A DNA stretch of 64,000 nucleotides from a virus (IMGVR_UViG_3300035670_000191:1540-65539), one strand, 5' to 3'; shown: positions 18,459 to 26,086, counted from the first letter of the stretch. Notes: generated from the letters alone by a model not told the origin. Program-made: numbers and translations.

Positions 18459-18597
18459 GGTTAAGGGCACGGATGCCCTAGCCCCTAGCAAGGTACCTCT
18501 ACAAAGTTGACTTGTAGTCGGGATTTTGGAAACTGGCTTTTTCCCCGGAGCAACTTTTTTCAAATTGACTTGTAGGGTGGGTTATTATAAGGGGCGA

Positions 18598-18690
18598 AGA
18601 GGACACCGGCAAAAGGGGAAATACTAAGCCCCAGTGCCGGTGTCTTGTAGGTGTGGTGAAAAGGCGGGGCTTTAGGGTCTCGCCTTTTTT
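18598..18690 (+). ncRNA. candidate small RNA (stem-loop plus terminator)
   Basis: AGGACACCGGCA/TGCCGGTGTCTT stem with inner GGGG/CCCC; terminator 18659-18690; TTGACT at 18565. Confidence 0.4.
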
Positions 18691-18723
18691 GTGTTTAGCC
18701 TTTGCTTTGGTGTTGGAGTTTGT

Positions 18724-19527
18724 ATGCGTTATCGGTTGTATCAAGGGGATTGCGCCAAAGTTATGGCTTCATTCCCGCCGGGGTCTGTTGACCTTGTTGT
18801 TACAAGTCCACCGTATGATGGGCTTAGGGCATACGAAGGGTATACGTTTGACTTCCCAAAGATTGCTGAAGAACTTTGGAGAGTTGTTACTGAAGGTGGT
18901 ATTGTTGTTTGGGTTATTGGAGATGCTACTGTTAATGGAAGTGAGACAGGAACGTCTTTTAGACAAGTGTTAAAGTTTATGGATGTTGGATTCCGGCTGC
19001 ATGATACTATGATATGGAATAAGGGGAGTTTTACGGCTGTTGGTGCTTTGAAAACACGCTATGGGCCTGTATTCGAGTATATGTTTGTACTGGCAAAGGG
19101 TAAGCCTAGAGTGTTTAATCCGATAAAGGATAGGAGGAATAAGCAAGCGGGAAAAACATCCAACGGACGGCTTCGACTCCCCGACGGTTCCATGAGGCTA
19201 AGAAGTAACCCAGACTATGTTATACCGGAATATGGGCAAAGATTTAACGTCTGGGATATACATCCGGTGAAGACCAACCGAGCCGACGACCATCCTGCCC
19301 CTTTTCCAGAAGCACTTGCAAATGACCATATTGTTTCTTGGTCGAATCCGGGAGACATAATACTTGACCCGTTCGCCGGAAGCGGAACAACATTGTTAGC
19401 GGCTTTGACAAACGGGCGGCAAGCCATTGGAATTGAAACTTCGGAAAAGTATTGTGGTATGATACGTGAGAGGCTGGCAAGACGTGGATTTCTTCCGGGC
19501 GGAAGTATTGTTGCTGTTGAAGGCTAA
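18724..19527 (+). CDS. beta-class DNA methyltransferase (probably N4-cytosine)
   Basis: VTSPPY, HPAPFP, LDPFAGSGTT. Confidence 0.92.
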   Translation: MRYRLYQGDCAKVMASFPPGSVDLVVTSPPYDGLRAYEGYTFDFPKIAEELWRVVTEGGIVVWVIGDATVNGSETGTSFRQVLKFMDVGFRLHDTMIWNKGSFTAVGALKTRYGPVFEYMFVLAKGKPRVFNPIKDRRNKQAGKTSNGRLRLPDGSMRLRSNPDYVIPEYGQRFNVWDIHPVKTNRADDHPAPFPEALANDHIVSWSNPGDIILDPFAGSGTTLLAALTNGRQAIGIETSEKYCGMIRERLARRGFLPGGSIVAVEG

Positions 19528-19573
19528 GGCAAGCCGCAAATTTATGAAAAGTGTTCTTCTGTGAGGTGATGTT

Positions 19574-19654
19574 ATGGTGTTGTTAGATGTTTTTTGGATA
19601 TGTGTTACTGCTTTGGTCACGTTCTCACTGCTCTCGGCGGTTGTAGATGATTAG
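19574..19654 (+). CDS. 26-aa hydrophobic peptide
   Basis: GAGGTG RBS; MVLLDVFWICVTALVTFSLLSAVVDD; below the ORF-track cutoff. Confidence 0.5.
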   Translation: MVLLDVFWICVTALVTFSLLSAVVDD

Positions 19655-20408
19655 GGAGTCAAGCCACGGTAGACTTATACTTGGTAACTGTCTTGACGTG
19701 CTACCCACACTCCGTGATACGTCCGCCGGGATGGTTTTGTGTGATATGCCGTATGGGACGACAGCTTGTAAGTGGGATGTTGTTATTCCTCTTGCGCCAA
19801 TGTGGCGGGAAGTTATGAGGGTTGTGAAGCCAGGCGGTGCAATCGTGCTGACAGCCACACAACCTTTTTCAAGTGTACTTGTTATGAGTCAGCCGGACTT
19901 GTTTAAGTATGCTTGGTATTGGTGTAAGAATTTTAAGACCGGACATTTGAATGCTAAGAAGCAGCCAATGAGGAGCGTGGAAGATATACTTGTGTTTTGC
20001 GATGGGCAGACAGTGTATAATCCGCAAGGGGTTGTGCCGCATGGTAAGGTGAAAGACCGGGGAGTCGGGGCCACGACAAACCGGCCTTGTGGTAGTGTGT
20101 CTTTGCAAACCCACACCGGCTATCCACACCAGCAGTTGTTCTTTGACCGTGACTTACCCTCTGTTCATCCTACGCAAAAGCCTGTTGCACTCTTTGAGTA
20201 TCTTGTAAGGACTTACACCAATCCCGGTGATACAGTAGTTGACTTTTGTTCTGGGAGCGGAACTACTGCTTTGGCGTGCATTGCTTCTGGGCGGAACTAT
20301 GTTTGTGTTGAGAAAGACCCAGGGTTTTATGAAGTAGGGGTTACGCGGGTGGGTGAGGCTGAAGCCATGCAAGCCCTGTGCCAACCGAGCGAATCTCACG
20401 CGCCGTGA
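19647..20408 (+). CDS. beta-class DNA methyltransferase (N6A/N4C)
   Basis: CDMPYG, HPTQKP, VDFCSGSGTT. Confidence 0.92.
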   Translation: MIRESSHGRLILGNCLDVLPTLRDTSAGMVLCDMPYGTTACKWDVVIPLAPMWREVMRVVKPGGAIVLTATQPFSSVLVMSQPDLFKYAWYWCKNFKTGHLNAKKQPMRSVEDILVFCDGQTVYNPQGVVPHGKVKDRGVGATTNRPCGSVSLQTHTGYPHQQLFFDRDLPSVHPTQKPVALFEYLVRTYTNPGDTVVDFCSGSGTTALACIASGRNYVCVEKDPGFYEVGVTRVGEAEAMQALCQPSESHAP

Positions 20409-20412
20409 AAAT

Positions 20413-20607
20413 TTGACAAGTGTGGTTGGGTGTGGTAGGAACGGGTTGACCGCTCTGCTTACCACACTTTTGGCTGTTTGTCAAGAGCCTGTGCCGCCAT
20501 GCACACTTCCGTCGGAATGTCAAGCCGGAAGCTGGCTGTTGACAAAGGGCTTTTGGTGTGGTAGGGCAGGCCAAGCACTTGACACACACCCCAACATGTG
20601 GTAAACC
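20413..20607. promoter_or_regulatory. cluster of sigma70-like sites in both orientations
   Basis: TTGACA-N12-TGTGG-TA at 20413(+), 20484(-), 20539(+), 20579(+); weaker copy at 20523(-). Confidence 0.75.
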
Positions 20608-20632
20608 CCCCCCCCCCACCTGGCCCCCCCCC

Positions 20633-20732
20633 ACAAAATCCATGCCACCCCTCCCTCCCTCCCCCCGGCACGGCCCTTGCACCGTCAAAATCCATGCCAC
20701 CACGCCCGACCCGACCTGGCACGAACCTTGCA
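20633..20732. promoter_or_regulatory. cluster of four sigma54-like sites
   Basis: CGGCACGGCCCTTGCA 20666, TGGCACGAACCTTGCA 20717; TGGCATGGATTTTG twice on the minus strand. Confidence 0.7.
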
Positions 20733-20827
20733 AGTTACCCCGCCACCGATCCGCCACCATAGTAAAGTTCTCGATCAACCTCGTTCTAACTCCCAAAAAA
20801 GTCCAAAAAAGCACCAACTACCCCGGG

Positions 20828-20866
20828 GGCCGCCCACAGCCCCTATCACAAAGCGTGATAACCAGC
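20828..20866 (+). repeat. 39-bp direct repeat, copy 1
   Basis: 31/39 identical to 23467-23505; contains TATCAC-N5-GTGATA. Confidence 0.7.
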
Positions 20867-21049
20867 CCTGAAATTCCCCAGAAAATTCCGGGATAAAAAC
20901 CCTGTAAACCGCATGGTTTTTCCGTGTGGGCAACAAGCGACGCCCAGTGTTGCGCCCACGCAACAATTACAACGGACTGTGATAGGGGGTTGTTGCGCGG
21001 ACGCAACAGCCAAGCCTTCGGCTCCGGTCTCCGACTTTGCATGGCCTGC

Positions 21050-22330
21050 TGCCCAAAGGTTTGCCCAAGTCCGGGTCTGCCTCGCCAAAGGTTTGCCAAA
21101 GTTTTGGTGGAAGGTTTGTCCGAGTCTGCGGCTCCCGGCTCCGGGTGTCAAGTTTCCGACAGGCCCGACAAGCAGGGCCATGGGACTGGTCAGTCCAGAT
21201 CGCCCCACCCAAACATAAACTTGGACTAACTTCCAGGGCTTGGGAGACAAGAACTTAAGGCAAGCCCTGCAAGCCCTGCAAGCCCCAAGTTGAACTTAGT
21301 TGTTGCGGGCCAAGGGCCATGCCCATTCAACAAGTTGAAGTTGGGCCTGTGGCCAAGGGCCATACCCAGTGTCAATTTTCCGACACTTGGACAAGTGGGG
21401 TTTGCCCGGCTGCCCGGCTGCCCGTGTTGCGTGTTTGCAACAAGTGGGCCGGGGCCGAGGGCTTTCCAAGTGGAACTTATTGTTGCCACAGATGTACCTG
21501 CCCACAAGTGGACTTCCAGTTTCACTTGTGGGGCTTGCCAAGTTGGCAACAAATTGACCCCAAGTTGAACTTCCATGAACTTCCATGAACTTCCAGTTGT
21601 TTGCCACAAGTGAAAAGTTAGCCAAGCCTGTTTGCAACAAGGGTGGGGGGGACTTCAATAAGTTGAACCCGGTTGAACCCGGTTGAACCCGGTTGAACGG
21701 CCAAGCCTGTTGGCTTCAATAAGTTTGGTTCCCGCCGGGCAAGCCCTGCCTGCAACAAGTTGAGTCAATGTTGGCTGTGCCATGCAACAAGTTTGGCTCC
21801 CGCCAGTGGAACAATGTTCATGCAACAAGTTAACCCGGTTAACCCTGTTAAACAATGTTTGCCAGTGGAATCCACTGGATTCAACAAGTTGAACACTGTT
21901 CATGGCTTCTTTCAGAAGTTGGGGGGGGGGGGCAATGGGCAGACTTTCAGAAGTGAAACTTATGGGCCAAGGGCAAGGGCAAGCCTGGCCAATCCCGACC
22001 AAGCCTGCAACAAGTTGACCTTGTTGACCCCGGTTGACCCCGGTTGACCCGCCCCGTTCAGCCCTTGTTCAGGTTCATGCGACAGGTTGACAGGGTGACC
22101 TTGTGGCCATGCCCCGGTTGAACCCCGGTTGCCGACAAGCCCACAAGTGTCAGTTTCCCGACAGATGGGCGGGGCAAGCCCGCTGGCTGAACAGACTGAC
22201 TGTTGACAGGCCAAGCCAGGGGCAAGCCCAAAGGGATGGCAGGTGTCAAGTGGGCACAGGGCCAAGCACCGAGGCCAAGCCCTCACGCCCTCACGCTCAC
22301 ACAAGTCGCAGCCCACAGCCCACAGCCCGG
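21050..22330. repeat. non-coding field of short tandem repeats and palindromes
   Basis: CAAGCCCTG, AACTTCCATG, GTTGAACCCG, GTTGACCCCG tandems; TTCAACAAGTTGAA palindromes. Confidence 0.8.
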
Positions 22331-22452
22331 ATTGGCCGAAGGCCTGGCCACGGCCACTTTTTTGCGTGCGGGTGCATGTGTGGATTTATAGTTACCCTAG
22401 TTGTTCTAGTTCGGAGGCCGCCGACCCGCATTCTGCCTAGGGCCGAAGGCCA

Positions 22453-22518
22453 ATAGGTGGGATAAAACAACCAGATAGGGGGGAAAATCCAACCACATAG
22501 GTGGGAAAAAACAACCAC
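22453..22518 (+). repeat. three tandem 22-bp iterons (putative plasmid-type origin)
   Basis: ATAGGTGGGATAAAACAACCAG / ATAGGGGGGAAAATCCAACCAC / ATAGGTGGGAAAAAACAACCAC directly upstream of rep. Confidence 0.85.
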
Positions 22519-22585
22519 AAAAGGGTGAATGGCCCTTGCCCTGCTCACCCCTATCGGCTAGACTGGGGCTTTTTGAGGCAGAGCC

Positions 22586-23422
22586 GTGATCGTGAAAAAC
22601 GTCCCAAGCACCGACAGCAGAATGGTGTGCCCCTTGTTGGCGGGCAACACCCATGCAAGTTTGAGCAACATTTTGTTGAACGGAAGTTTCCCTTTTTCAA
22701 ACACTGAGGCTCTTGCCATTCTTTTGTCACTTGGAGGGGTTAATTCAACTCCGACTGACAACCCTGAAACAGATGCTTACAGGAAGTCAAGAGTTTATGC
22801 GTTCAGCACAAAAGACTATGCGGCTTTGAAAAACTTGGACGCAAGACAGACTTACAGGACTTTTCTGGCAGCAGCAGAGTCCATTTTCAAGAAACACTTT
22901 GTTGTTTTTCCGTCAAAGACAAATAGAGACAAAGTCTTGTGCCGTTGGGTTAGCGAAGTTCATGCTTATGCAGATGCAGACAGGATTGGGTTTGTTTACA
23001 GTCCGACGGTTTACGACTTTATCTTTAACTTGACAGGGGATTTTACGCGGCTAAACACACTTGTGTCTTTGACCATTGAGGGAAAACACCCAAGAAGATT
23101 GTTTATGCTGCTGGAACAACAGCGGTTCAGGGGTCTTGTGGGGCAGGCAGGGTGGGGAATTGAGGAACTTTATGAGTGCTTTGGGGCAACGGAGGCGGCC
23201 AGGGAAGCGAAGGTGTTTTTCAAGGACATTTTCAATCCGTCAGTTGCGGCTTTGAAGGAAGTTGGGTATCTGGATGAGTGCGAAGTTCGGAAGGTTAAGG
23301 CTGGTCGGAACATTTCGGGAGTTGAGTTGGACTTTGTTTTGGCGTCGCAGGAGAAGTTTGCCGAAGTTTACAGGGCAGACTTGGAGCATCTTGCGAAACT
23401 GAAGGCAAGGTGGGGAAGCTAA
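22586..23422 (+). CDS. plasmid-type replication initiator (Rep_3/RepB family)
   Basis: SN.LL....FS..E, FIFNL..DFT, RRLFMLL, IEEL..FG, FFKDIF.PSV, K.GR.I; adjacent iterons. Confidence 0.85.
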   Translation: MIVKNVPSTDSRMVCPLLAGNTHASLSNILLNGSFPFSNTEALAILLSLGGVNSTPTDNPETDAYRKSRVYAFSTKDYAALKNLDARQTYRTFLAAAESIFKKHFVVFPSKTNRDKVLCRWVSEVHAYADADRIGFVYSPTVYDFIFNLTGDFTRLNTLVSLTIEGKHPRRLFMLLEQQRFRGLVGQAGWGIEELYECFGATEAAREAKVFFKDIFNPSVAALKEVGYLDECEVRKVKAGRNISGVELDFVLASQEKFAEVYRADLEHLAKLKARWGS

Positions 23423-23466
23423 CAGCCCCACTCCCGCCTCAAAAAAGCGTCAAAAAACCGACACTA

Positions 23467-23505
23467 GGCCACCCACAGCCAAAATCACATTCCGTGATAC
23501 CCAGC
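23467..23505 (+). repeat. 39-bp direct repeat, copy 2
   Basis: matches 20828-20866; contains AATCAC-N5-GTGATA. Confidence 0.7.
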
Positions 23506-24058
23506 AAAGGGCCGGCAAAGGGACTGTTCAACCTTAGACAAAGCCAGAGGGCGGACAAACTTGTCCAAAGTTCTTGGCGAACAGACAGAGCTATACTCAG
23601 GTTGTGACAGAGCATCATGGCTAAAGTTCCATGAAATCACCGATAGACGACAGTCTACCACAGATTGCCGCCGGGGGGACACGTTTAGGCAACAAACTGG
23701 GAGGGGAGTGTCAAAAAAGTGACACCCAGTGAGGGCGGGGCCGGGCCGGGGCCAAGGACGGACGGGGCAAACCCGTGAAGTGGGAAGCGTGACAGACGGA
23801 CGGGGCAAGCCGGGGGGACAAGCCCCAAAGTCCAACTTAGTCAAAGATTGTGGCGTGGCGAGGCCCAACTTAGTCCAAGTTCGTGCCGAAAGAATGGTAG
23901 ACTTAGTTTGGGGCGAGCCGGGGCAGGCCAGGGTGTACAGGTTTTGTATGGGGGGGGGCTAGCCCTGGGCGGTTGTGTGGATTTTGGCCAAGTGTCAAGA
24001 TTTTGACGGTGGGGGGGGGGGGTGTCGGTGTCCGGGTGTGGGCGGTGGGGTTAGGGTG

Positions 24059-24087
24059 TTGACGGGGAGGAGGGGGTGTGGTAGAGT
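24059..24087 (+). promoter_or_regulatory. sigma70 promoter of the Lcl gene cluster
   Basis: TTGACG-N12-TGTGG-TAGAGT (17-bp spacer, -7 T present). Confidence 0.7.
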
Positions 24088-24153
24088 GTGTGGGAAGGGG
24101 GGGGTGGCCCTCGCCCCAAACAGCAATTCCAAGCACCACCTGGCGAGAGTATC

Positions 24154-24489
24154 ATGACAGACAAATTATACAGCGAGTTTTCTGAAGTCCTAGAAGAAGT
24201 TTTCCTGGAGAGGGAGAAAGTCCCCTTTGAAAAGTCTTCCGTCAATCCTTCTCATGTATGTGTAGCTGAAAGATTTTACAAGGAGGGGTTGAAAGCAGCC
24301 GCCATACAGCTAGGGTATAGCCGGTCTGACTTCTATTTTGCGTGGAAGGTAGCACAAGTAGCAATGTACGAACATAGACAAATGTACAGTTTGCTACTAG
24401 ACAGTGACCGGGCAGACACTATAGCCTACTTTTATGACATTCCGTCATGGAACATGGTTAAAGCAATGATGGATATTTTTACAGAGTAA
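24154..24489 (+). CDS. hypothetical protein
   Basis: ATG 24154 with GAGAG RBS, downstream of the promoter. Confidence 0.65.
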   Translation: MTDKLYSEFSEVLEEVFLEREKVPFEKSSVNPSHVCVAERFYKEGLKAAAIQLGYSRSDFYFAWKVAQVAMYEHRQMYSLLLDSDRADTIAYFYDIPSWNMVKAMMDIFTE

Positions 24490-24500
24490 CAGAAAGTGGA

Positions 24501-24884
24501 GTGAGAGCGGTGCAAAGCATGAGATACGAAACAGTGACAGAAACGGAAGTATTAGACCGAAAGACAGGTTTAATATGGATGAAAGACCCTAAGATTGACC
24601 TAAATTTTGAACAAGCTAAACAATATGCAGAGAGAATTTCTACTATAAATGGAAAATTTTGGAGAATCCCTACAATAGAGGAATTAGTTAGCTTAGTGGA
24701 CTATACATTATGCACACCTAACACACCGGCATCAACATTCCCTAATATGTTACAAAATATCTATTGGTCGTTTTCAAACTATTGGGGTGAGGTTGATAGA
24801 GTCTGGGTCGTAAATTTCTACGATGGTAAGATAATGGATTATGGCCTTGGTGATAATGTTGCATTAGTTCTCCTAGTTCGGTAA
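24501..24884 (+). CDS. Lcl C-terminal / DUF1566 domain protein
   Basis: D.KTGLIW, WRIPTIEEL, YWS, WVVNF.DG, LVR. Confidence 0.88.
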   Translation: MRAVQSMRYETVTETEVLDRKTGLIWMKDPKIDLNFEQAKQYAERISTINGKFWRIPTIEELVSLVDYTLCTPNTPASTFPNMLQNIYWSFSNYWGEVDRVWVVNFYDGKIMDYGLGDNVALVLLVR

Positions 24885-24890
24885 TAAATT

Positions 24891-25292
24891 ATGAATGTCG
24901 AGGTGCAGAGCATGAGATACGTTGAAGTTTCAGAAATACACGACACGCAAACAGGGCTAATTTGGCAAAAAGTATGTCAAGGCTCATTCACTATAGAAGA
25001 AGCCATAGCCTATGTTAAGTCTTTTAACAAAAGCACAGGCATGGAATGGAGAATTCCCACAATCGAGGAACTGAATAGGTTGGTTGACAGAAGCCAATTT
25101 GACCCGGCAACTAAATTCCCAGACAGCCCTAGTGGACTTTTCTGGTCATCTACAAAGTATCTTGGGAGGCCAGAAAGGGTATTCACCAATGAAAACAGCC
25201 ATAGTTATTGGTATATTAACTTCACTAATGGGGAGGTAAGTTTCAACTTAGGGGATTCTGAGTATTACCTAAGGTTAGTCCGTGATAAGTAA
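24891..25292 (+). CDS. Lcl C-terminal / DUF1566 domain protein
   Basis: DTQTGLIWQ, WRIPTIEEL, FWSST, INF.NG, LRLVR. Confidence 0.88.
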   Translation: MNVEVQSMRYVEVSEIHDTQTGLIWQKVCQGSFTIEEAIAYVKSFNKSTGMEWRIPTIEELNRLVDRSQFDPATKFPDSPSGLFWSSTKYLGRPERVFTNENSHSYWYINFTNGEVSFNLGDSEYYLRLVRDK

Positions 25293-25322
25293 TGCGGTTA
25301 AACAGAAACATAAGGCAGAAGC

Positions 25323-25721
25323 ATGAGTAAGTTAAAACAAATTGGTAGGGTAAAAGGTAAGGATTCCGCTAGCGATTCCATTGTATACTTGGAAAAACAC
25401 GCTAAGAGCAATGGGAAACTGTATTACGGTTTAGTTGTTGCAGAGACACCTGACGGAGTGATTAAGCCATATTTAATGGACGACATTATCGCGTCATTTG
25501 ACCTAGATGCACCGCTTATTGGAATGGAGGTTACTGTAGATAACCCACTTGAGTTTATTCAAAGTTGGCGAGACGTTTATAACTTAGAAAGCGTTATAAA
25601 GATGTACCGGAGAAACAACCCAAGCTCCTCTACGTTGCCGTTGTTACAAGCCGACCTGCTAGAGGCTTTAGATAAAATATGGTCTGAATTGACTAATTTG
25701 AAATACCGGAGAAGAATATGA
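25323..25721 (+). CDS. hypothetical protein
   Basis: 132 aa ORF overlapping the next start. Confidence 0.65.
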   Translation: MSKLKQIGRVKGKDSASDSIVYLEKHAKSNGKLYYGLVVAETPDGVIKPYLMDDIIASFDLDAPLIGMEVTVDNPLEFIQSWRDVYNLESVIKMYRRNNPSSSTLPLLQADLLEALDKIWSELTNLKYRRRI

Positions 25722-26086
25722 GATACGTTGAAAAAGCAGAATCAGAAATCCTTGATACCAAAACCAATTTGGTTTGGCAAAGGTCATACGAGACCATGAC
25801 ATTTGATGAGGCTCACGCTTATGCAAAGCGTGTTTCAGATGTTACAGGGCAACAATGGAGGGTGCCGACACTGGATGAATTGACGAGTCTGATTGACAGA
25901 TCAACAAGAAACCCCGCGTCGGCATTTCCTGGTATGCCTCCGGTATGGTTTTGGTCGTCGTCGCCGTACGTCGGCTATACCAGTTGCGTCTGGGGTGTCA
26001 ATTTCGGCGATGGCAGTGTCTACGGCAGCGGCAGCCGTGGCTACGGCTACGGCGCGGTTCGGTTGGTTCGTGATGCAATACCCTAA
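25718..26086 (+). CDS. Lcl/DUF1566 protein with a DGR-type variable region
   Basis: WRVPTLDEL, FWSSS, VRLVR; 3' codons almost all NNY. Confidence 0.88.
   Translation: MRYVEKAESEILDTKTNLVWQRSYETMTFDEAHAYAKRVSDVTGQQWRVPTLDELTSLIDRSTRNPASAFPGMPPVWFWSSSPYVGYTSCVWGVNFGDGSVYGSGSRGYGYGAVRLVRDAIP

What the first reader, a model, noticed from the sequence alone, without database searches (positions are those of the whole stretch)
20410..24090. 3.7-kb mostly non-coding collection of host-transcription-like sites around a rep gene: candidate DNA decoy or regulatory array
Seen: apart from rep, no convincing gene lies between 20408 and 24154. The DNA carries several distinct motif families, each repeated: five sigma70-like sites, four sigma54-like sites, six GTC-N8-GAC boxes, three TGTTGC-N6-GCAACA palindromes, two ATCAC-N5-GTGAT palindromes, many (T/G)CAACAAGTT(GA) units, and GAACTT hexamers resembling the sigmaE -35. 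Most have no ORF to drive and several occur in both orientations. Inference: the block may titrate host RNA polymerase holoenzymes and enhancer-binding proteins (amplified if the element replicates as a plasmid), or it may be a complex origin, injection or lifestyle control region. I do not know a described phage system of this form.
Basis: partly seen in the sequence, partly recalled or inferred. Interest (0 to 1): 0.85.

Follow-up and report, generated by a model that had tools for sequence, protein, structure and literature searches.

The report
Phage replication origin in repeat-rich DNA
A tailed phage from freshwater and subsurface metagenomes keeps a plasmid-type replication initiator gene and its binding repeats inside about 2.9 kb of real, gene-free, repeat-packed DNA, which most likely is the phage's replication origin plus a large control region rather than a decoy for host transcription proteins.

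Summary
Between the methylase stop (20408) and the next gene (ATG 24154), only rep looks coding, by codon statistics and family searches.

rep is a two-winged-helix, Rep3/RepE-type initiator. Three 22-bp iterons lie 67 bp upstream of it, next to a modest A+T-rich patch and a promoter-like site. That is an iteron origin.

The other ~2.9 kb holds:
- three palindrome families and one family of direct repeats;
- many 7-11-bp tandem arrays;
- two near-consensus sigma54-type sites, with a third just outside;
- a border cluster of -35/extended -10-like units;
- mirror-image C-rich and G-rich borders carrying the window's only long G/C homopolymers.

Contigs from three separate studies hold the parts of the region in the same order at phage-like depth, so it is neither a chimera nor a multicopy plasmid. 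One module recurs 21 kb away in another untranslated stretch, so at least that family is phage-wide regulatory DNA.

Best reading (0.5): the phage origin embedded in an unusually large cis-regulatory hub. The decoy idea is untested and unsupported (about 0.06). No distant relative carrying the region could be fetched, so motif conservation remains untested.

The parts
20369..20383 (-). Sigma54-type site TGGCAC-N5-TTGCA, pointing left, inside the 3' end of the methylase gene
   Evidence: The consensus is recalled from memory, not from a tool.
20413..20607 (.). Border cluster of -35/extended -10-like units TTGACA-N14-TGGTA: three on + (20413, 20539, 20579) and one on - (20484), plus a degenerate unit on -. 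None of the four has T at the last -10 position.
   Evidence: (family D11). 0 such units occur in the rest of the window; the fifth is at 24059.
20576..20760 (+). C-rich border: C12 (20606-20617), C9 (20624-20632) and three ~52-nt tandem units. These are the most C-over-G-skewed 100-nt windows of the whole 64 kb.
   Evidence: (D12)
20666..20731 (+). Two sigma54-type sites 51 nt apart (CGGCAC-N5-TTGCA at 20666; TGGCAC-N5-TTGCA at 20717), pointing into the region
   Evidence: (2 observed against 0.01-0.02 expected, 0 of 200 shuffles)
20794..20866 (+). Module m1: two A-tracts plus the palindrome TATCAC-N5-GTGATA. It is the left copy of a ~75-bp direct repeat.
   Evidence: alignment score 40 against 19.6 +/- 2.2 in 100 shuffles. 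Also (D17).
20948..21008 (.). Two TGTTGCG-N4-CGCAACA palindromes (20948, 20991). A third lies at 21425-21442. They share the half-site GCAACA with the CAACAAGTT units.
21145..21162 (.). First of six GTGTCAA-N4-YYGACAC palindromes. The others are at 21369-21386, 22147-22164, 23447-23464, 23708-23725 and 23992-24009.
   Evidence: (D9, D10)
21040..22330 (+). Core of short repeats. It holds 8 same-strand (T/G)CAA(C/T)AAGTT units and tandem arrays of period 7-11: GCAAGCCCT x2.9, TGCCCGGC x2.8, TGAACTTCCA x3, GTTGAACCCG x3.7, GTTAACCCG x2.6, GTTGACCCCG x2.8, CAGCCCA x2.9. It also holds G12 at 21921-21932.
   Evidence: Repeat-unit copy number differs between strains (table 4).
22375..22415 (.). Modest A+T-rich patch: 61% A+T against 44% for the surrounding non-coding DNA, with CTAGTT x3. 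Candidate unwinding element.
   Evidence: Its role is an inference.
22453..22519 (+). Three tandem 22-bp iterons (consensus ATAGGTGGGAAAAAACAACCAC). No further copy with 7 or fewer mismatches exists anywhere in the window.
   Evidence: D5; period 22, 3.0 copies
22536..22564 (+). rep promoter-like site TTGCCC-N17-TAGACT (8 of 12 to consensus), abutting the iterons. GAGG lies 7 nt before the GTG at 22586.
   Evidence: Read by eye. It falls below the threshold of the scan.
22586..23425 (+). rep: a 278-aa Rep3/RepE-type initiator with two winged-helix domains
   Evidence: Pfam Rep3_N, E 5e-13. PHROG 4402. 27% identity to Acinetobacter RepM over 90% of its length. Model pLDDT 91.6. Fold match to RepE54, Rep-iteron/DUE complexes and pi, TM 0.84-0.89 by target.
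23440..23505 (+). Module m2: the right copy of the ~75-bp direct repeat (A-tracts, GTC-N8-GAC, AATCAC-N5-GTGATA)
   Evidence: (D17). A third copy lies in the record's left end, outside the window.
23926..24125 (+). G-rich border, the mirror image of the C-rich one: G9 (23950), G12 (24011), G8 (24097). It forms a 16-nt perfect inverted repeat with 20605-20620. These are the most G-over-C-skewed windows of the 64 kb.
   Evidence: (I4, I5, I15-I17)
24059..24087 (+). Promoter TTGACG-N14-TGG-TAGAGT, 67 nt before the ATG of the next gene
   Evidence: (9 of 12, TG present)
24154..24489 (+). First gene to the right (111 aa, no family). It marks the end of the untranslated block.

Best explanation
The block is the phage's replication-origin locus set inside an unusually large cis-regulatory hub.

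SHOWN. rep encodes a RepE/pi-type two-winged-helix initiator. Three 22-bp tandem iterons lie 67 bp upstream of it and abut a promoter-like site. The remaining ~2.9 kb is untranslated, real, and single-copy with the phage. It is packed with non-random sites.

INFERRED.
- Rep monomers bind the iterons, open the nearby A+T-richer patch and recruit the phage's own helicases and PolA.
- Iteron occupancy also shuts off the rep promoter.
- The palindrome families (GTGTCAA-N4-YYGACAC x6, TGTTGCG-N4-CGCAACA x3, TATCAC-N5-GTGATA x2 plus one elsewhere in the genome) and the 8 same-strand CAAYAAGTT units are operators or handles for dimeric DNA-binding proteins, of phage or host origin and not yet identified. 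These proteins would set when the origin fires and when the flanking gene blocks are read.
- The border promoter cluster and the two sigma54-type promoters send conditional transcription into the origin. Activation would depend on a host activator, since the phage record encodes none.
- The mirror-image C-rich and G-rich borders make any inward, untranslated RNA C-rich. That would be Rho-sensitive and so insulate the origin from read-through transcription.
For: - Rep family and fold.
- Iterons at 22-bp phasing next to rep, and nowhere else in the window.
- In Rep_3 plasmids, tandem repeats near the rep start codon together with an A+T-rich patch are the usual origin signature (PMC7315799, passages read).
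- rep scores as coding under the phage's own codon statistics, and its G+C is phage-like.
- Motif families are non-random.
- Module m1/m2 recurs in a third untranslated stretch 21 kb away at the record's left end, beside ordinary phage genes.
- The 24059 unit sits in promoter position for the next gene.
- Contigs from three studies hold the parts in the same order. The left half matches the left flank in depth (13.5 against 13.7; 7.9 against 8.9).
- The rep contig has 1.2-2x the depth of both flanks in two runs. That would fit origin-proximal excess, but it is one figure per contig and only a weak hint.
- The borders are the two most extreme C-G skew windows of the 64 kb, with opposite sign.
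- The record holds PolA, helicases and a ligase, but no integrase, ParA, ParB, Xre-type HTH or sigma54 activator.
Against: - No consensus DnaA box (TTWTNCACA) is present in the region, and the A+T patch is modest at 61%.
- Only three iterons are present, and no inverted half-iteron operator was found.
- An iteron origin normally needs a few hundred bases, so about 2.5 kb of the block is not explained by origin function. Its binding proteins are unknown, and no DNA-binding family was detected in about 40 ORFs scanned.
- Part of the block is dispensable or replaceable. One strain has 1481 other letters in place of 23553-23749, and tandem-unit numbers vary.
- No distant relative with the region could be fetched. 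The only relative's contig reaching this spot ends 135 bp upstream of the next gene, in tandem repeats. So conservation of motif families is untested.
- No RNA data are available, so no promoter here is demonstrated.
Confidence: 0.5

Rival explanations
1. Plasmid-type maintenance module or mobile mini-replicon. Either the phage persists as a low-copy plasmid prophage, with rep plus iterons as the plasmid origin and the flanking arrays as copy-control and centromere-like sites (as in P1 incC-repA-incA). Or a small Rep3 plasmid once recombined into the phage and can loop out between the ~75-bp direct repeats as a ~2.65-kb circle.
For: - Rep's nearest named relatives are plasmid RepM proteins: 244 plasmid records matched and 0 phage records.
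- Direct repeats m1 and m2 bracket the repeat core, iterons and rep.
- The ends of the block are imperfect inverted repeats (I4, I5, I15-I17).
- The flanks are 54-56% G+C against 46% for the phage.
- The gene order around the block differs in the one relative that reaches it.
- Arrays of ~10-bp tandem repeats resemble plasmid centromeres (recalled).
Against: - No ParA, ParB, integrase or Xre-type repressor is found in the 65.5-kb record, estimated 78% complete.
- The gene set looks virulent: PolA, helicases, ligase, ThyA, MazG.
- rep has phage-like codon use and G+C.
- Depth is phage-like, not multicopy.
- The 22-bp iteron is not repeated downstream of rep, unlike P1 incA.
- No looped-out joint appears among the contigs. 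Contigs would rarely show one.
Confidence: 0.15
2. A genome-end, injection or packaging control region of the T5/T7 kind. Untranslated arrays of direct repeats, inverted repeats and palindromes next to clustered early promoters would act in DNA entry, end formation or concatemer processing.
For: - The T5 untranslated repeat regions (629 + 188 + ~1200 bp) are a comparable 'Russian doll' of repeats and palindromes (10.1101/866236, section 3.3).
- Tandem promoter-like units sit at the border.
- A relative's contig ends in tandem repeats 135 bp upstream of the homologous gene.
- This record's own left end is a 9 x 16-bp tandem array followed by related motifs.
Against: - The block lies in the middle of the record, 19 kb from the terminase genes.
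- Contig breaks fall at homopolymers, not at depth steps of 2x.
- An initiator gene with iterons sits inside the block.
- There are no DnaA boxes, which are the conserved feature of the T5 region.
- TerL is not T5-like; the best cultured match is 33% identical, to a Marinobacter phage.
Confidence: 0.12
3. The sites soak up host sigma70 and sigma54 holoenzymes and enhancer-binding proteins as the phage DNA multiplies, re-wiring host transcription.
For: - Three near-consensus sigma54-type sites lie within 350 bp, against about 0.02 expected.
- No phage-encoded activator exists to fire them.
- Four of the five TTGACN-N14-TGGTA units have a perfect -35 and a TG extension but lack the final T of the -10. 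They might bind polymerase without opening.
- Most sites have no ORF to drive.
- Sigma54 is scarce in E. coli and its holoenzyme sits stably on promoters without an activator (recalled), so titration by some hundred genome copies is numerically conceivable.
Against: - No binding or expression data exist.
- The strict sigma70 scan shows no excess: 5 sites against 3.1 +/- 1.8.
- 4 of the 13 TTGACA hexamers are arms of palindromes, which suggests another protein.
- GAACTT is barely enriched.
- The majority of the repeated words (CAAYAAGTT, GCAAGCCC, GTTGAACCCG, GGCC-rich palindromes) resemble no host promoter element.
- Segments are replaceable between strains.
- One module serves another intergenic region.
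Confidence: 0.06
4. An assembly artefact. Two mis-joins at poly-C and poly-G tracts would have stitched an unrelated Rep3 plasmid fragment into a phage contig.
For: - The block is bounded by C12 and G12 tracts, the kind of sequence at which assemblers fail.
- Logan contigs of all laid runs break there, and none bridges 20617-20660 among the rows listed.
- The G+C of the flanks differs from the phage's.
Against: - The pieces co-occur, in the same order and at matching depth, in runs from three studies.
- Motif families cross the homopolymers. TTGACN-N14-TGGTA units lie outside both tracts, and GTC-N8-GAC and the TATCAC module lie inside and in distant phage DNA.
- rep uses the phage's codon statistics.
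- One Logan contig spans the internal G12 tract (record 11).
Confidence: 0.03

Closest known systems
Iteron-type theta origins with Rep3/RepE/pi initiators (mini-F oriS/repE, R6K gamma ori/pi, pPS10, Acinetobacter Rep_3 plasmids)
   Same: Both have a two-winged-helix initiator. Both have tandem ~22-bp direct repeats immediately upstream of rep with an A+T-richer patch beside them (PMC7315799 passages). The repeats abut the rep promoter-like site.
   Different: This one sits in a tailed phage that has its own PolA and helicases. It has only three iterons, no consensus DnaA box and no inverted half-iteron operator. It is surrounded by ~2.5 kb of further repeat families that are not iteron copies. 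Rep is only ~27% identical to named plasmid Reps.
P1 plasmid-prophage replicon (incC-repA-incA) and RepA/parABS mycobacteriophage prophages
   Same: A rep gene in a phage is flanked on both sides by repeat arrays. Some RepA mycobacteriophages have an extra repeat locus just downstream of repA (PMC7157519, section read).
   Different: The arrays downstream of rep here are not copies of the iteron. No parAB or lysogeny genes were found in the 78%-complete record. The P1 details are recalled, not checked here.
Untranslated repeat regions of T5-like phages (the 'injection stop signal' region)
   Same: Both are a kilobase-scale untranslated block in a virulent-looking siphovirus, made of many different direct repeats, inverted repeats and palindromes nested in one another (10.1101/866236, abstract and section 3.3).
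   Different: The T5 regions lie in the terminal repeat. They are defined by eight DnaA boxes and hold no initiator gene. Here there are no DnaA boxes, an initiator with iterons is present, the position is internal, and the phages are unrelated.
Sigma54 promoters with upstream enhancer sites
   Same: Two tandem sites and one divergent site match GG-N10-GC with TGGCAC-N5-TTGCA. A 190-bp cluster of repeated units in both orientations lies between the divergent sites, where enhancers would sit.
   Different: No activator gene is in the record. No gene lies downstream for 1.9 kb. Host and expression are unknown. The consensus is recalled.

Membership tests
Rep3/RepE-type iteron replicon | Initiator with the Rep_3 N-terminal winged-helix domain (WH1) | tested here: met
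   Pfam PF01051, E 5.2e-13, 50 bits against a cut-off of 22.4, residues 27-176. PDB sequence hit 6h24 WH1, E 7e-4.
Rep3/RepE-type iteron replicon | Two winged-helix domains (WH1 + WH2), as in iteron-bound RepE54 and pi | tested here: met
   AlphaFold model pLDDT 91.6, pTM 0.88. Foldseek matches to 8ac8, 7sgc, 1rep and 2nra at E 4e-11 to 6e-10, with TM by target 0.73-0.89 over ~234 columns.
Rep3/RepE-type iteron replicon | Tandem direct repeats (iterons) of ~17-22 bp at helical phasing next to rep | tested here: met
   Three copies of a 22-bp unit at 22453-22519, 82% matches, ending 67 bp before the rep start.
Rep3/RepE-type iteron replicon | A+T-rich unwinding element beside the iterons | tested here: inconclusive
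   22375-22415 is 61% A+T against 44% for the surrounding non-coding DNA, but only slightly above the phage average of 54%.
Rep3/RepE-type iteron replicon | DnaA box(es) in the origin | tested here: not met
   0 matches to TTWTNCACA on either strand of the non-coding block. The best by eye is 7 of 9 at about 22378. Not all members of the family need one (recalled).
Rep3/RepE-type iteron replicon | Rep binds the iterons and the fragment replicates autonomously | not testable with these tools
   Needs EMSA or footprinting and a replication assay in the unknown host.
Phage-plasmid (P1/N15/RepA-parABS type) | Partition system (ParA/ParB or equivalent) and lysogeny control genes | tested here: not met
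   PF13614, PF02195, PF00589 and PF01381 each give 0 matches at E <= 1 in the 65.5-kb record, while controls ring in 11-14 of 14 genomes. The record is estimated 78% complete, so absence is not proven.
T5-type untranslated repeat / iss region | Paired DnaA boxes in inverted repeats, located in the terminal repeat | tested here: not met
   No DnaA boxes. The block is internal to the record. Virion ends are unknown.
Sigma54-dependent promoter | -24 GG and -12 GC elements at fixed spacing | tested here: met
   TGGCAC-N5-TTGCA at 20717+ and 20383-, and CGGCAC-N5-TTGCA at 20666+. 0 of 200 shuffles reach the count.
Sigma54-dependent promoter | A cognate enhancer-binding activator, and a transcript starting ~12 nt downstream | tested here: inconclusive
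   No PF00158 match in the phage record. A host activator cannot be assessed because the host is unknown. No RNA run was listed.

The most novel reading that the evidence does not exclude
The block is a replicating sink for host transcription machinery. It carries near-consensus sigma54 sites with no activator and no gene to drive. It also carries -35/extended -10 units that lack the base needed for promoter opening. These would hold E-sigma54 and E-sigma70 in dead-end complexes. Because the sites sit next to the phage's own origin, their number rises with every round of replication. That would drain a scarce sigma factor and shut down host sigma54 regulons during infection.
Probability: 0.06. 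Interest if true: 0.85.

Novelty: new variant of a known kind. Interest (0 to 1): 0.5.

Why it matters
Phage genomes are normally packed with genes. About 2.9 kb of untranslated DNA, roughly 4% of this record, with at least five non-random site families is rare and is cheap to test.

If the reading is right, the locus offers three things:
- a compact, portable origin (patch, iterons, rep) for an uncultured freshwater/subsurface host lineage;
- a set of operator sequences with which to fish out the unknown regulators of this phage group;
- a natural case of sigma54-type promoters feeding a viral origin, which would tie phage replication to a host physiological signal.

It also has a practical side. 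The homopolymer and tandem-repeat borders break short-read assemblies of this phage group. That probably explains why relatives in databases are fragments that stop at exactly such regions.

Tried and rejected
SEARCHES FOR RELATIVES CARRYING THE REGION ALL FAILED.
- Rep protein or the Rep pair alignment in viral contigs and metagenome contigs: no confirmed locus.
- ORF24154 in metagenome contigs: none.
- PolA and the 274-aa neighbour in viral contigs: none.
- The Lcl_C gene and ORF24154 found only one relative contig (G001). It ends 135 bp upstream of the gene.
- TerL found 11 related fragments. tblastn of 205 window ORFs against 11 records shows that none of them holds rep or the block, and they show no similar G+C-rich or motif-rich stretch.
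- TerL in genome contigs: none, so no prophage or host clue.
- DNA searches of the block against phages and plasmids: no match.
- A pattern scan for the A-tract + ATCAC palindrome module in viral contigs gave 13 hits. That is about the number I estimate by chance, and 0 of 13 carry the other motif families.

OTHER DEAD ENDS.
- The k-mer protein search found only the query's own cluster.
- A self-BLAST of the block shows only short repeats.
- Sliding RNA folds give mean z -0.6, with 11 of 128 windows below -2, all at the palindromes. There is no sign of a large structured RNA.
- ORF24154 has no family and no usable Atlas lead.
- No RNA holder was listed among the sequencing runs, so expression is untested.
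- Uncovered stretches in runs X4 and X5 say nothing.

LITERATURE. Searches turned up no description of a block like this one. They were narrow and do not show that none exists. This includes the supplement of 10.1101/866236 that lists the T5 repeats, and Table S3 of PMC7315799 with the iteron sequences.

REJECTED READINGS.
- CRISPR array, tRNA or other known RNA genes.
- Hidden protein genes.
- Multicopy plasmid contamination.

Full report
WHERE THIS IS. The window is bases 1540-65539 of a 65.5-kb linear IMG/VR virus record, estimated 78% complete. It is a siphovirus-type phage:
- Structural genes: large terminase, portal, protease, major head protein, a 2075-aa tape measure, and tail tip and fibre genes.
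- Its own DNA machinery: PolA, two helicases, a PD-(D/E)XK nuclease, a Sak4-like protein, ligase, thymidylate synthase, MazG and two N6/N4 methylases.
- Cultured relatives: the nearest by terminase are only 33% identical.
- Metagenomic relatives: eleven fragments share 51-65% terminase identity.

- Coding. A 3-periodic Markov coding score trained on 24 of the phage's genes is positive in the methylase, in rep and in the ORF at 24154. It is negative in all six frames across 20390-22590 and 23360-24100.
- Open frames. The many open frames there exist because stop codons are rare in this composition. The 10 longest give no Pfam hit and nothing meaningful in PHROGs.
- Known RNAs. There is no tRNA and no Rfam family.
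- Extent. The untranslated DNA therefore amounts to 2177 + 728 = 2905 nt around an 840-nt gene.
- Repeat density. It holds 58 distinct 9-mers in three or more copies. Markov-3 shuffles give 8.3 +/- 3.3 (0 of 100 reach 58), and 37 other same-size segments of the window give at most 10.
They check out one by one against 200 Markov-1 and 200 Markov-3 shuffles (positions):
  - six GTC-N8-GAC palindromes;
  - three TGTTGC-N6-GCAACA palindromes;
  - two ATCAC-N5-GTGAT palindromes;
  - nine CAAYAAGTT units, eight on one strand;
  - five TTGACN-N14-TGGTA units.
  For each of these, 0 of 200 shuffles reach the count, and the rest of the window holds none or almost none (GTC-N8-GAC is the one that also occurs there, 11 sites in 59.5 kb).
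- Sigma54-type sites. I count two inside the block and one just outside it, not four.
- Weak items. GAACTT (9 of 200 Markov-3 shuffles reach the count) and bare TTGACA (7 of 200) are only weakly enriched. A strict sigma70 scan finds no excess.

IT IS NOT AN ARTEFACT. Logan contigs of four runs were laid on 18500-26000.
- Run X2 is a second sample of the likely source study. Four contigs tile the stretch at depths 13.7, 13.5, 20.5 and 17.5, breaking only at the homopolymers.
- Run X3 is from an independent freshwater study. A roughly 97%-identical strain shows the same order (depths 8.9, 7.9, 16.8, 11.6), and one contig crosses the internal G12 tract.
- Run X5 is from a third study. It holds the methylase side and the iteron/rep start.
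- The depths are phage-like, so this is not a multicopy plasmid.
- Differences between strains are mostly whole repeat units: 20 and 10 nt missing from the two 10-bp arrays, and 4 nt from the G tract. In addition, 23553-23749 is replaced by 1481 other letters.
- No listed contig bridges the C12 tract. For that join I rely on three things: the record itself, the co-occurrence of the pieces, and motif families that occur on both sides of the tracts.

WHAT REP IS.
- Pfam places residues 27-176 in Rep3_N (E 5e-13), and PHROG 4402 is 'replication initiation protein'.
- tblastn finds 244 plasmid records, mostly Acinetobacter RepM at ~27% identity over 90% of the length, and no phage record.
- An exhaustive HMMER search gives 108 representatives. 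Only one is above 31% identity, a 48%-identical protein on a 1.7-kb contig that I could not fetch.
- A 38-sequence alignment gives a confident model (pLDDT 91.6). It superposes on iteron-bound RepE54 of mini-F, on Rep-iteron/DUE complexes and on pi of R6K, with TM 0.73-0.89 by target.
- Three 22-bp tandem repeats lie at 22453-22519 and have no further copy in the window. A 61% A+T patch with CTAGTT x3 lies just upstream. A TTGCCC-N17-TAGACT site and a GAGG lie between the last repeat and the GTG (read).
- This is the standard anatomy of an iteron origin (PMC7315799, passages). It lacks a consensus DnaA box.

THE REST OF THE BLOCK, FROM LEFT TO RIGHT.
1. A sigma54-type site pointing left, inside the methylase 3' end.
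2. A 190-bp cluster of TTGACA-N14-TGGTA units in both orientations. None of these four units ends its -10 with T.
3. A C-rich stretch with C12 and C9 tracts. It is built of three ~52-nt units, two of which are sigma54-type sites pointing right.
4. Module m1 (A-tracts plus TATCAC-N5-GTGATA).
5. Two TGTTGCG-N4-CGCAACA palindromes.
6. A 1.3-kb core holding:
   - three GTGTCAA-N4-YYGACAC palindromes;
   - the CAAYAAGTT units, which share the half-site GCAACA with the TGTTGC palindromes;
   - seven or more short tandem arrays of period 7-11;
   - a G12 tract.
7. The A+T patch, the iterons and rep.
8. Module m2. This is a ~75-bp direct repeat of m1, with alignment score 40 against 19.6 +/- 2.2 in shuffles.
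9. More palindromes and short repeats.
10. A G-rich stretch with G9, G12 and G8 tracts. It mirrors the C-rich one, including a 16-nt perfect inverted repeat (I4).
11. A unit with a good -10 (TGG-TAGAGT), 67 nt before the next gene.

Two further features set the block apart. All six G/C runs of 8 or more in the window lie in this block. The two borders are the most extreme C-minus-G windows of the 64 kb, with opposite sign.

A CLUE FROM OUTSIDE THE WINDOW. The first 400 bases of the record are also untranslated.
- They start with nine copies of a 16-bp G+C-rich unit, where the assembly stops.
- They then carry AAGTT/CAACTT-type words and a third copy of the A-tract + AATCAC-N5-GTGATA module.
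- That module lies next to the end of the leftward helicase operon.
So at least this module is a recurrent phage regulatory element, not a speciality of the rep block. Its 17-bp geometry with TATCAC half-sites recalls lambdoid operators. That is recalled from memory and is a resemblance only. No Xre-type HTH gene was found.

HOW IT MOST LIKELY WORKS. I commit, at 0.5, to this reading: the phage's origin of replication lies inside a large control hub.
- Shown: the initiator, the iterons, the non-coding and non-random nature of the block, and its physical reality.
- Inferred: Rep opens the adjacent patch and autoregulates. The palindromes are operators for unidentified dimeric proteins. The border units and sigma54-type sites deliver conditional transcription toward the origin. 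The C-rich-inward borders terminate untranslated read-through by Rho.
- Gene content: the record has no integrase, ParA, ParB or sigma54 activator. Rep therefore more likely serves lytic replication, and the sigma54 sites would need a host activator.
- Depth hint: the rep contig's 1.2-2x depth excess over both flanks in two runs would fit an origin, but contig depths are too coarse to count for much.

RIVALS.
- Plasmid-prophage or looped-out mini-replicon reading (0.15). It explains the direct repeats, the inverted ends and the plasmid affinity of Rep. It lacks partition and lysogeny genes and any depth signal.
- T5/T7-like end or injection region (0.12). It explains the repeat architecture and why contigs of relatives stop in such DNA. 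It fits poorly with an internal position, an initiator gene and the absence of DnaA boxes.
The data do not exclude it. The sigma54 sites without activator or target gene, and the -35/TG units without a proper -10, are its best points. But most repeated words resemble no host promoter element, and nothing measures binding.
- Mis-assembly (0.03). Unlikely, for the reasons given above.

COMPARISON WITH WHAT IS KNOWN, AND NOVELTY.
- The core is a member of the iteron/Rep3 replicon kind. Of the five features I could test, three are met (WH1 domain, WH1+WH2 fold, iterons), the A+T-rich element is inconclusive and the DnaA box is not met.
- What is unusual is the setting: a virulent-looking phage with its own replisome, and ~2.5 kb of additional, structured, untranslated DNA bracketed by mirror-image homopolymer-rich borders and carrying sigma54-type sites.
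- The nearest described phage analogue in form is the T5 untranslated repeat regions. In function the nearest are plasmid and P1-type origin control regions.
- I rate it a new variant of a known kind, with interest 0.5.

THE MAIN GAP. No distant relative with the block could be retrieved.

Noticed in passing
L030 (record G000:C1) 1-400, left of the window: The record's left end is untranslated. It has nine tandem copies of a 16-bp G+C-rich unit at the very end, then AAGTT/CAACTT-rich words, then a third copy of the A-tract + AATCAC-N5-GTGATA module, and then a hairpin ending the leftward operon. The assembly stops in the tandem array.
   Followed up: partly
L013 1-135 (relative contig, G001): The only relative reaching this spot starts with 3 x 16-bp tandem repeats. 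It then has a canonical extended -10 promoter and a 2 x 10-bp repeat just before the homologue of ORF24154. In that phage the methylase homologue lies downstream of this gene instead of upstream of the block, so the junction is rearranged between relatives.
   Followed up: partly
window 23553-23749: In run X3 a contig of 3530 bases carries 1481 other letters in place of these 197 bases, starting inside the GGACAAACTTGTCC palindrome. The content of the insert could not be read (table 5).
   Followed up: no
window 18700-19529: The first of the two methylase genes is absent from the X3 strain. The contig skips 830 bases with 14 other letters in between (tables 5 and 5c).
   Followed up: no
window 24048-24092: A 1797-base contig of run X2, at phage-like depth 16.2, shares these 45 bases (the promoter unit) and then continues with sequence not present in the record. 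It is either a second copy of the promoter in the missing ~22% of the genome or a co-occurring variant.
   Followed up: partly
whole window: GATC is strongly avoided outside the block, at 0.33 per kb where about 3.9 would be expected from length alone. GGCC is 4.5-fold and CCGG 2.4-fold denser in the untranslated block than elsewhere. This may relate to host restriction or to the two phage methylases.
   Followed up: no
window 24501-26086: Three small paralogous genes with the Lcl C-terminal domain (PF07603; E 1e-21 to 1e-25) follow the block. Two are 87-89% identical to those of the relative G001, far more conserved than the terminase at 65%.
   Followed up: no
window 22586 vs 22724: The IMG gene call for rep is 232 aa, starting at an internal TTG. 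The conserved N-terminal HAS..N motif shared with distant homologues lies upstream of that start, so the 278-aa form (or a start at Met13) is the better call.
   Followed up: partly
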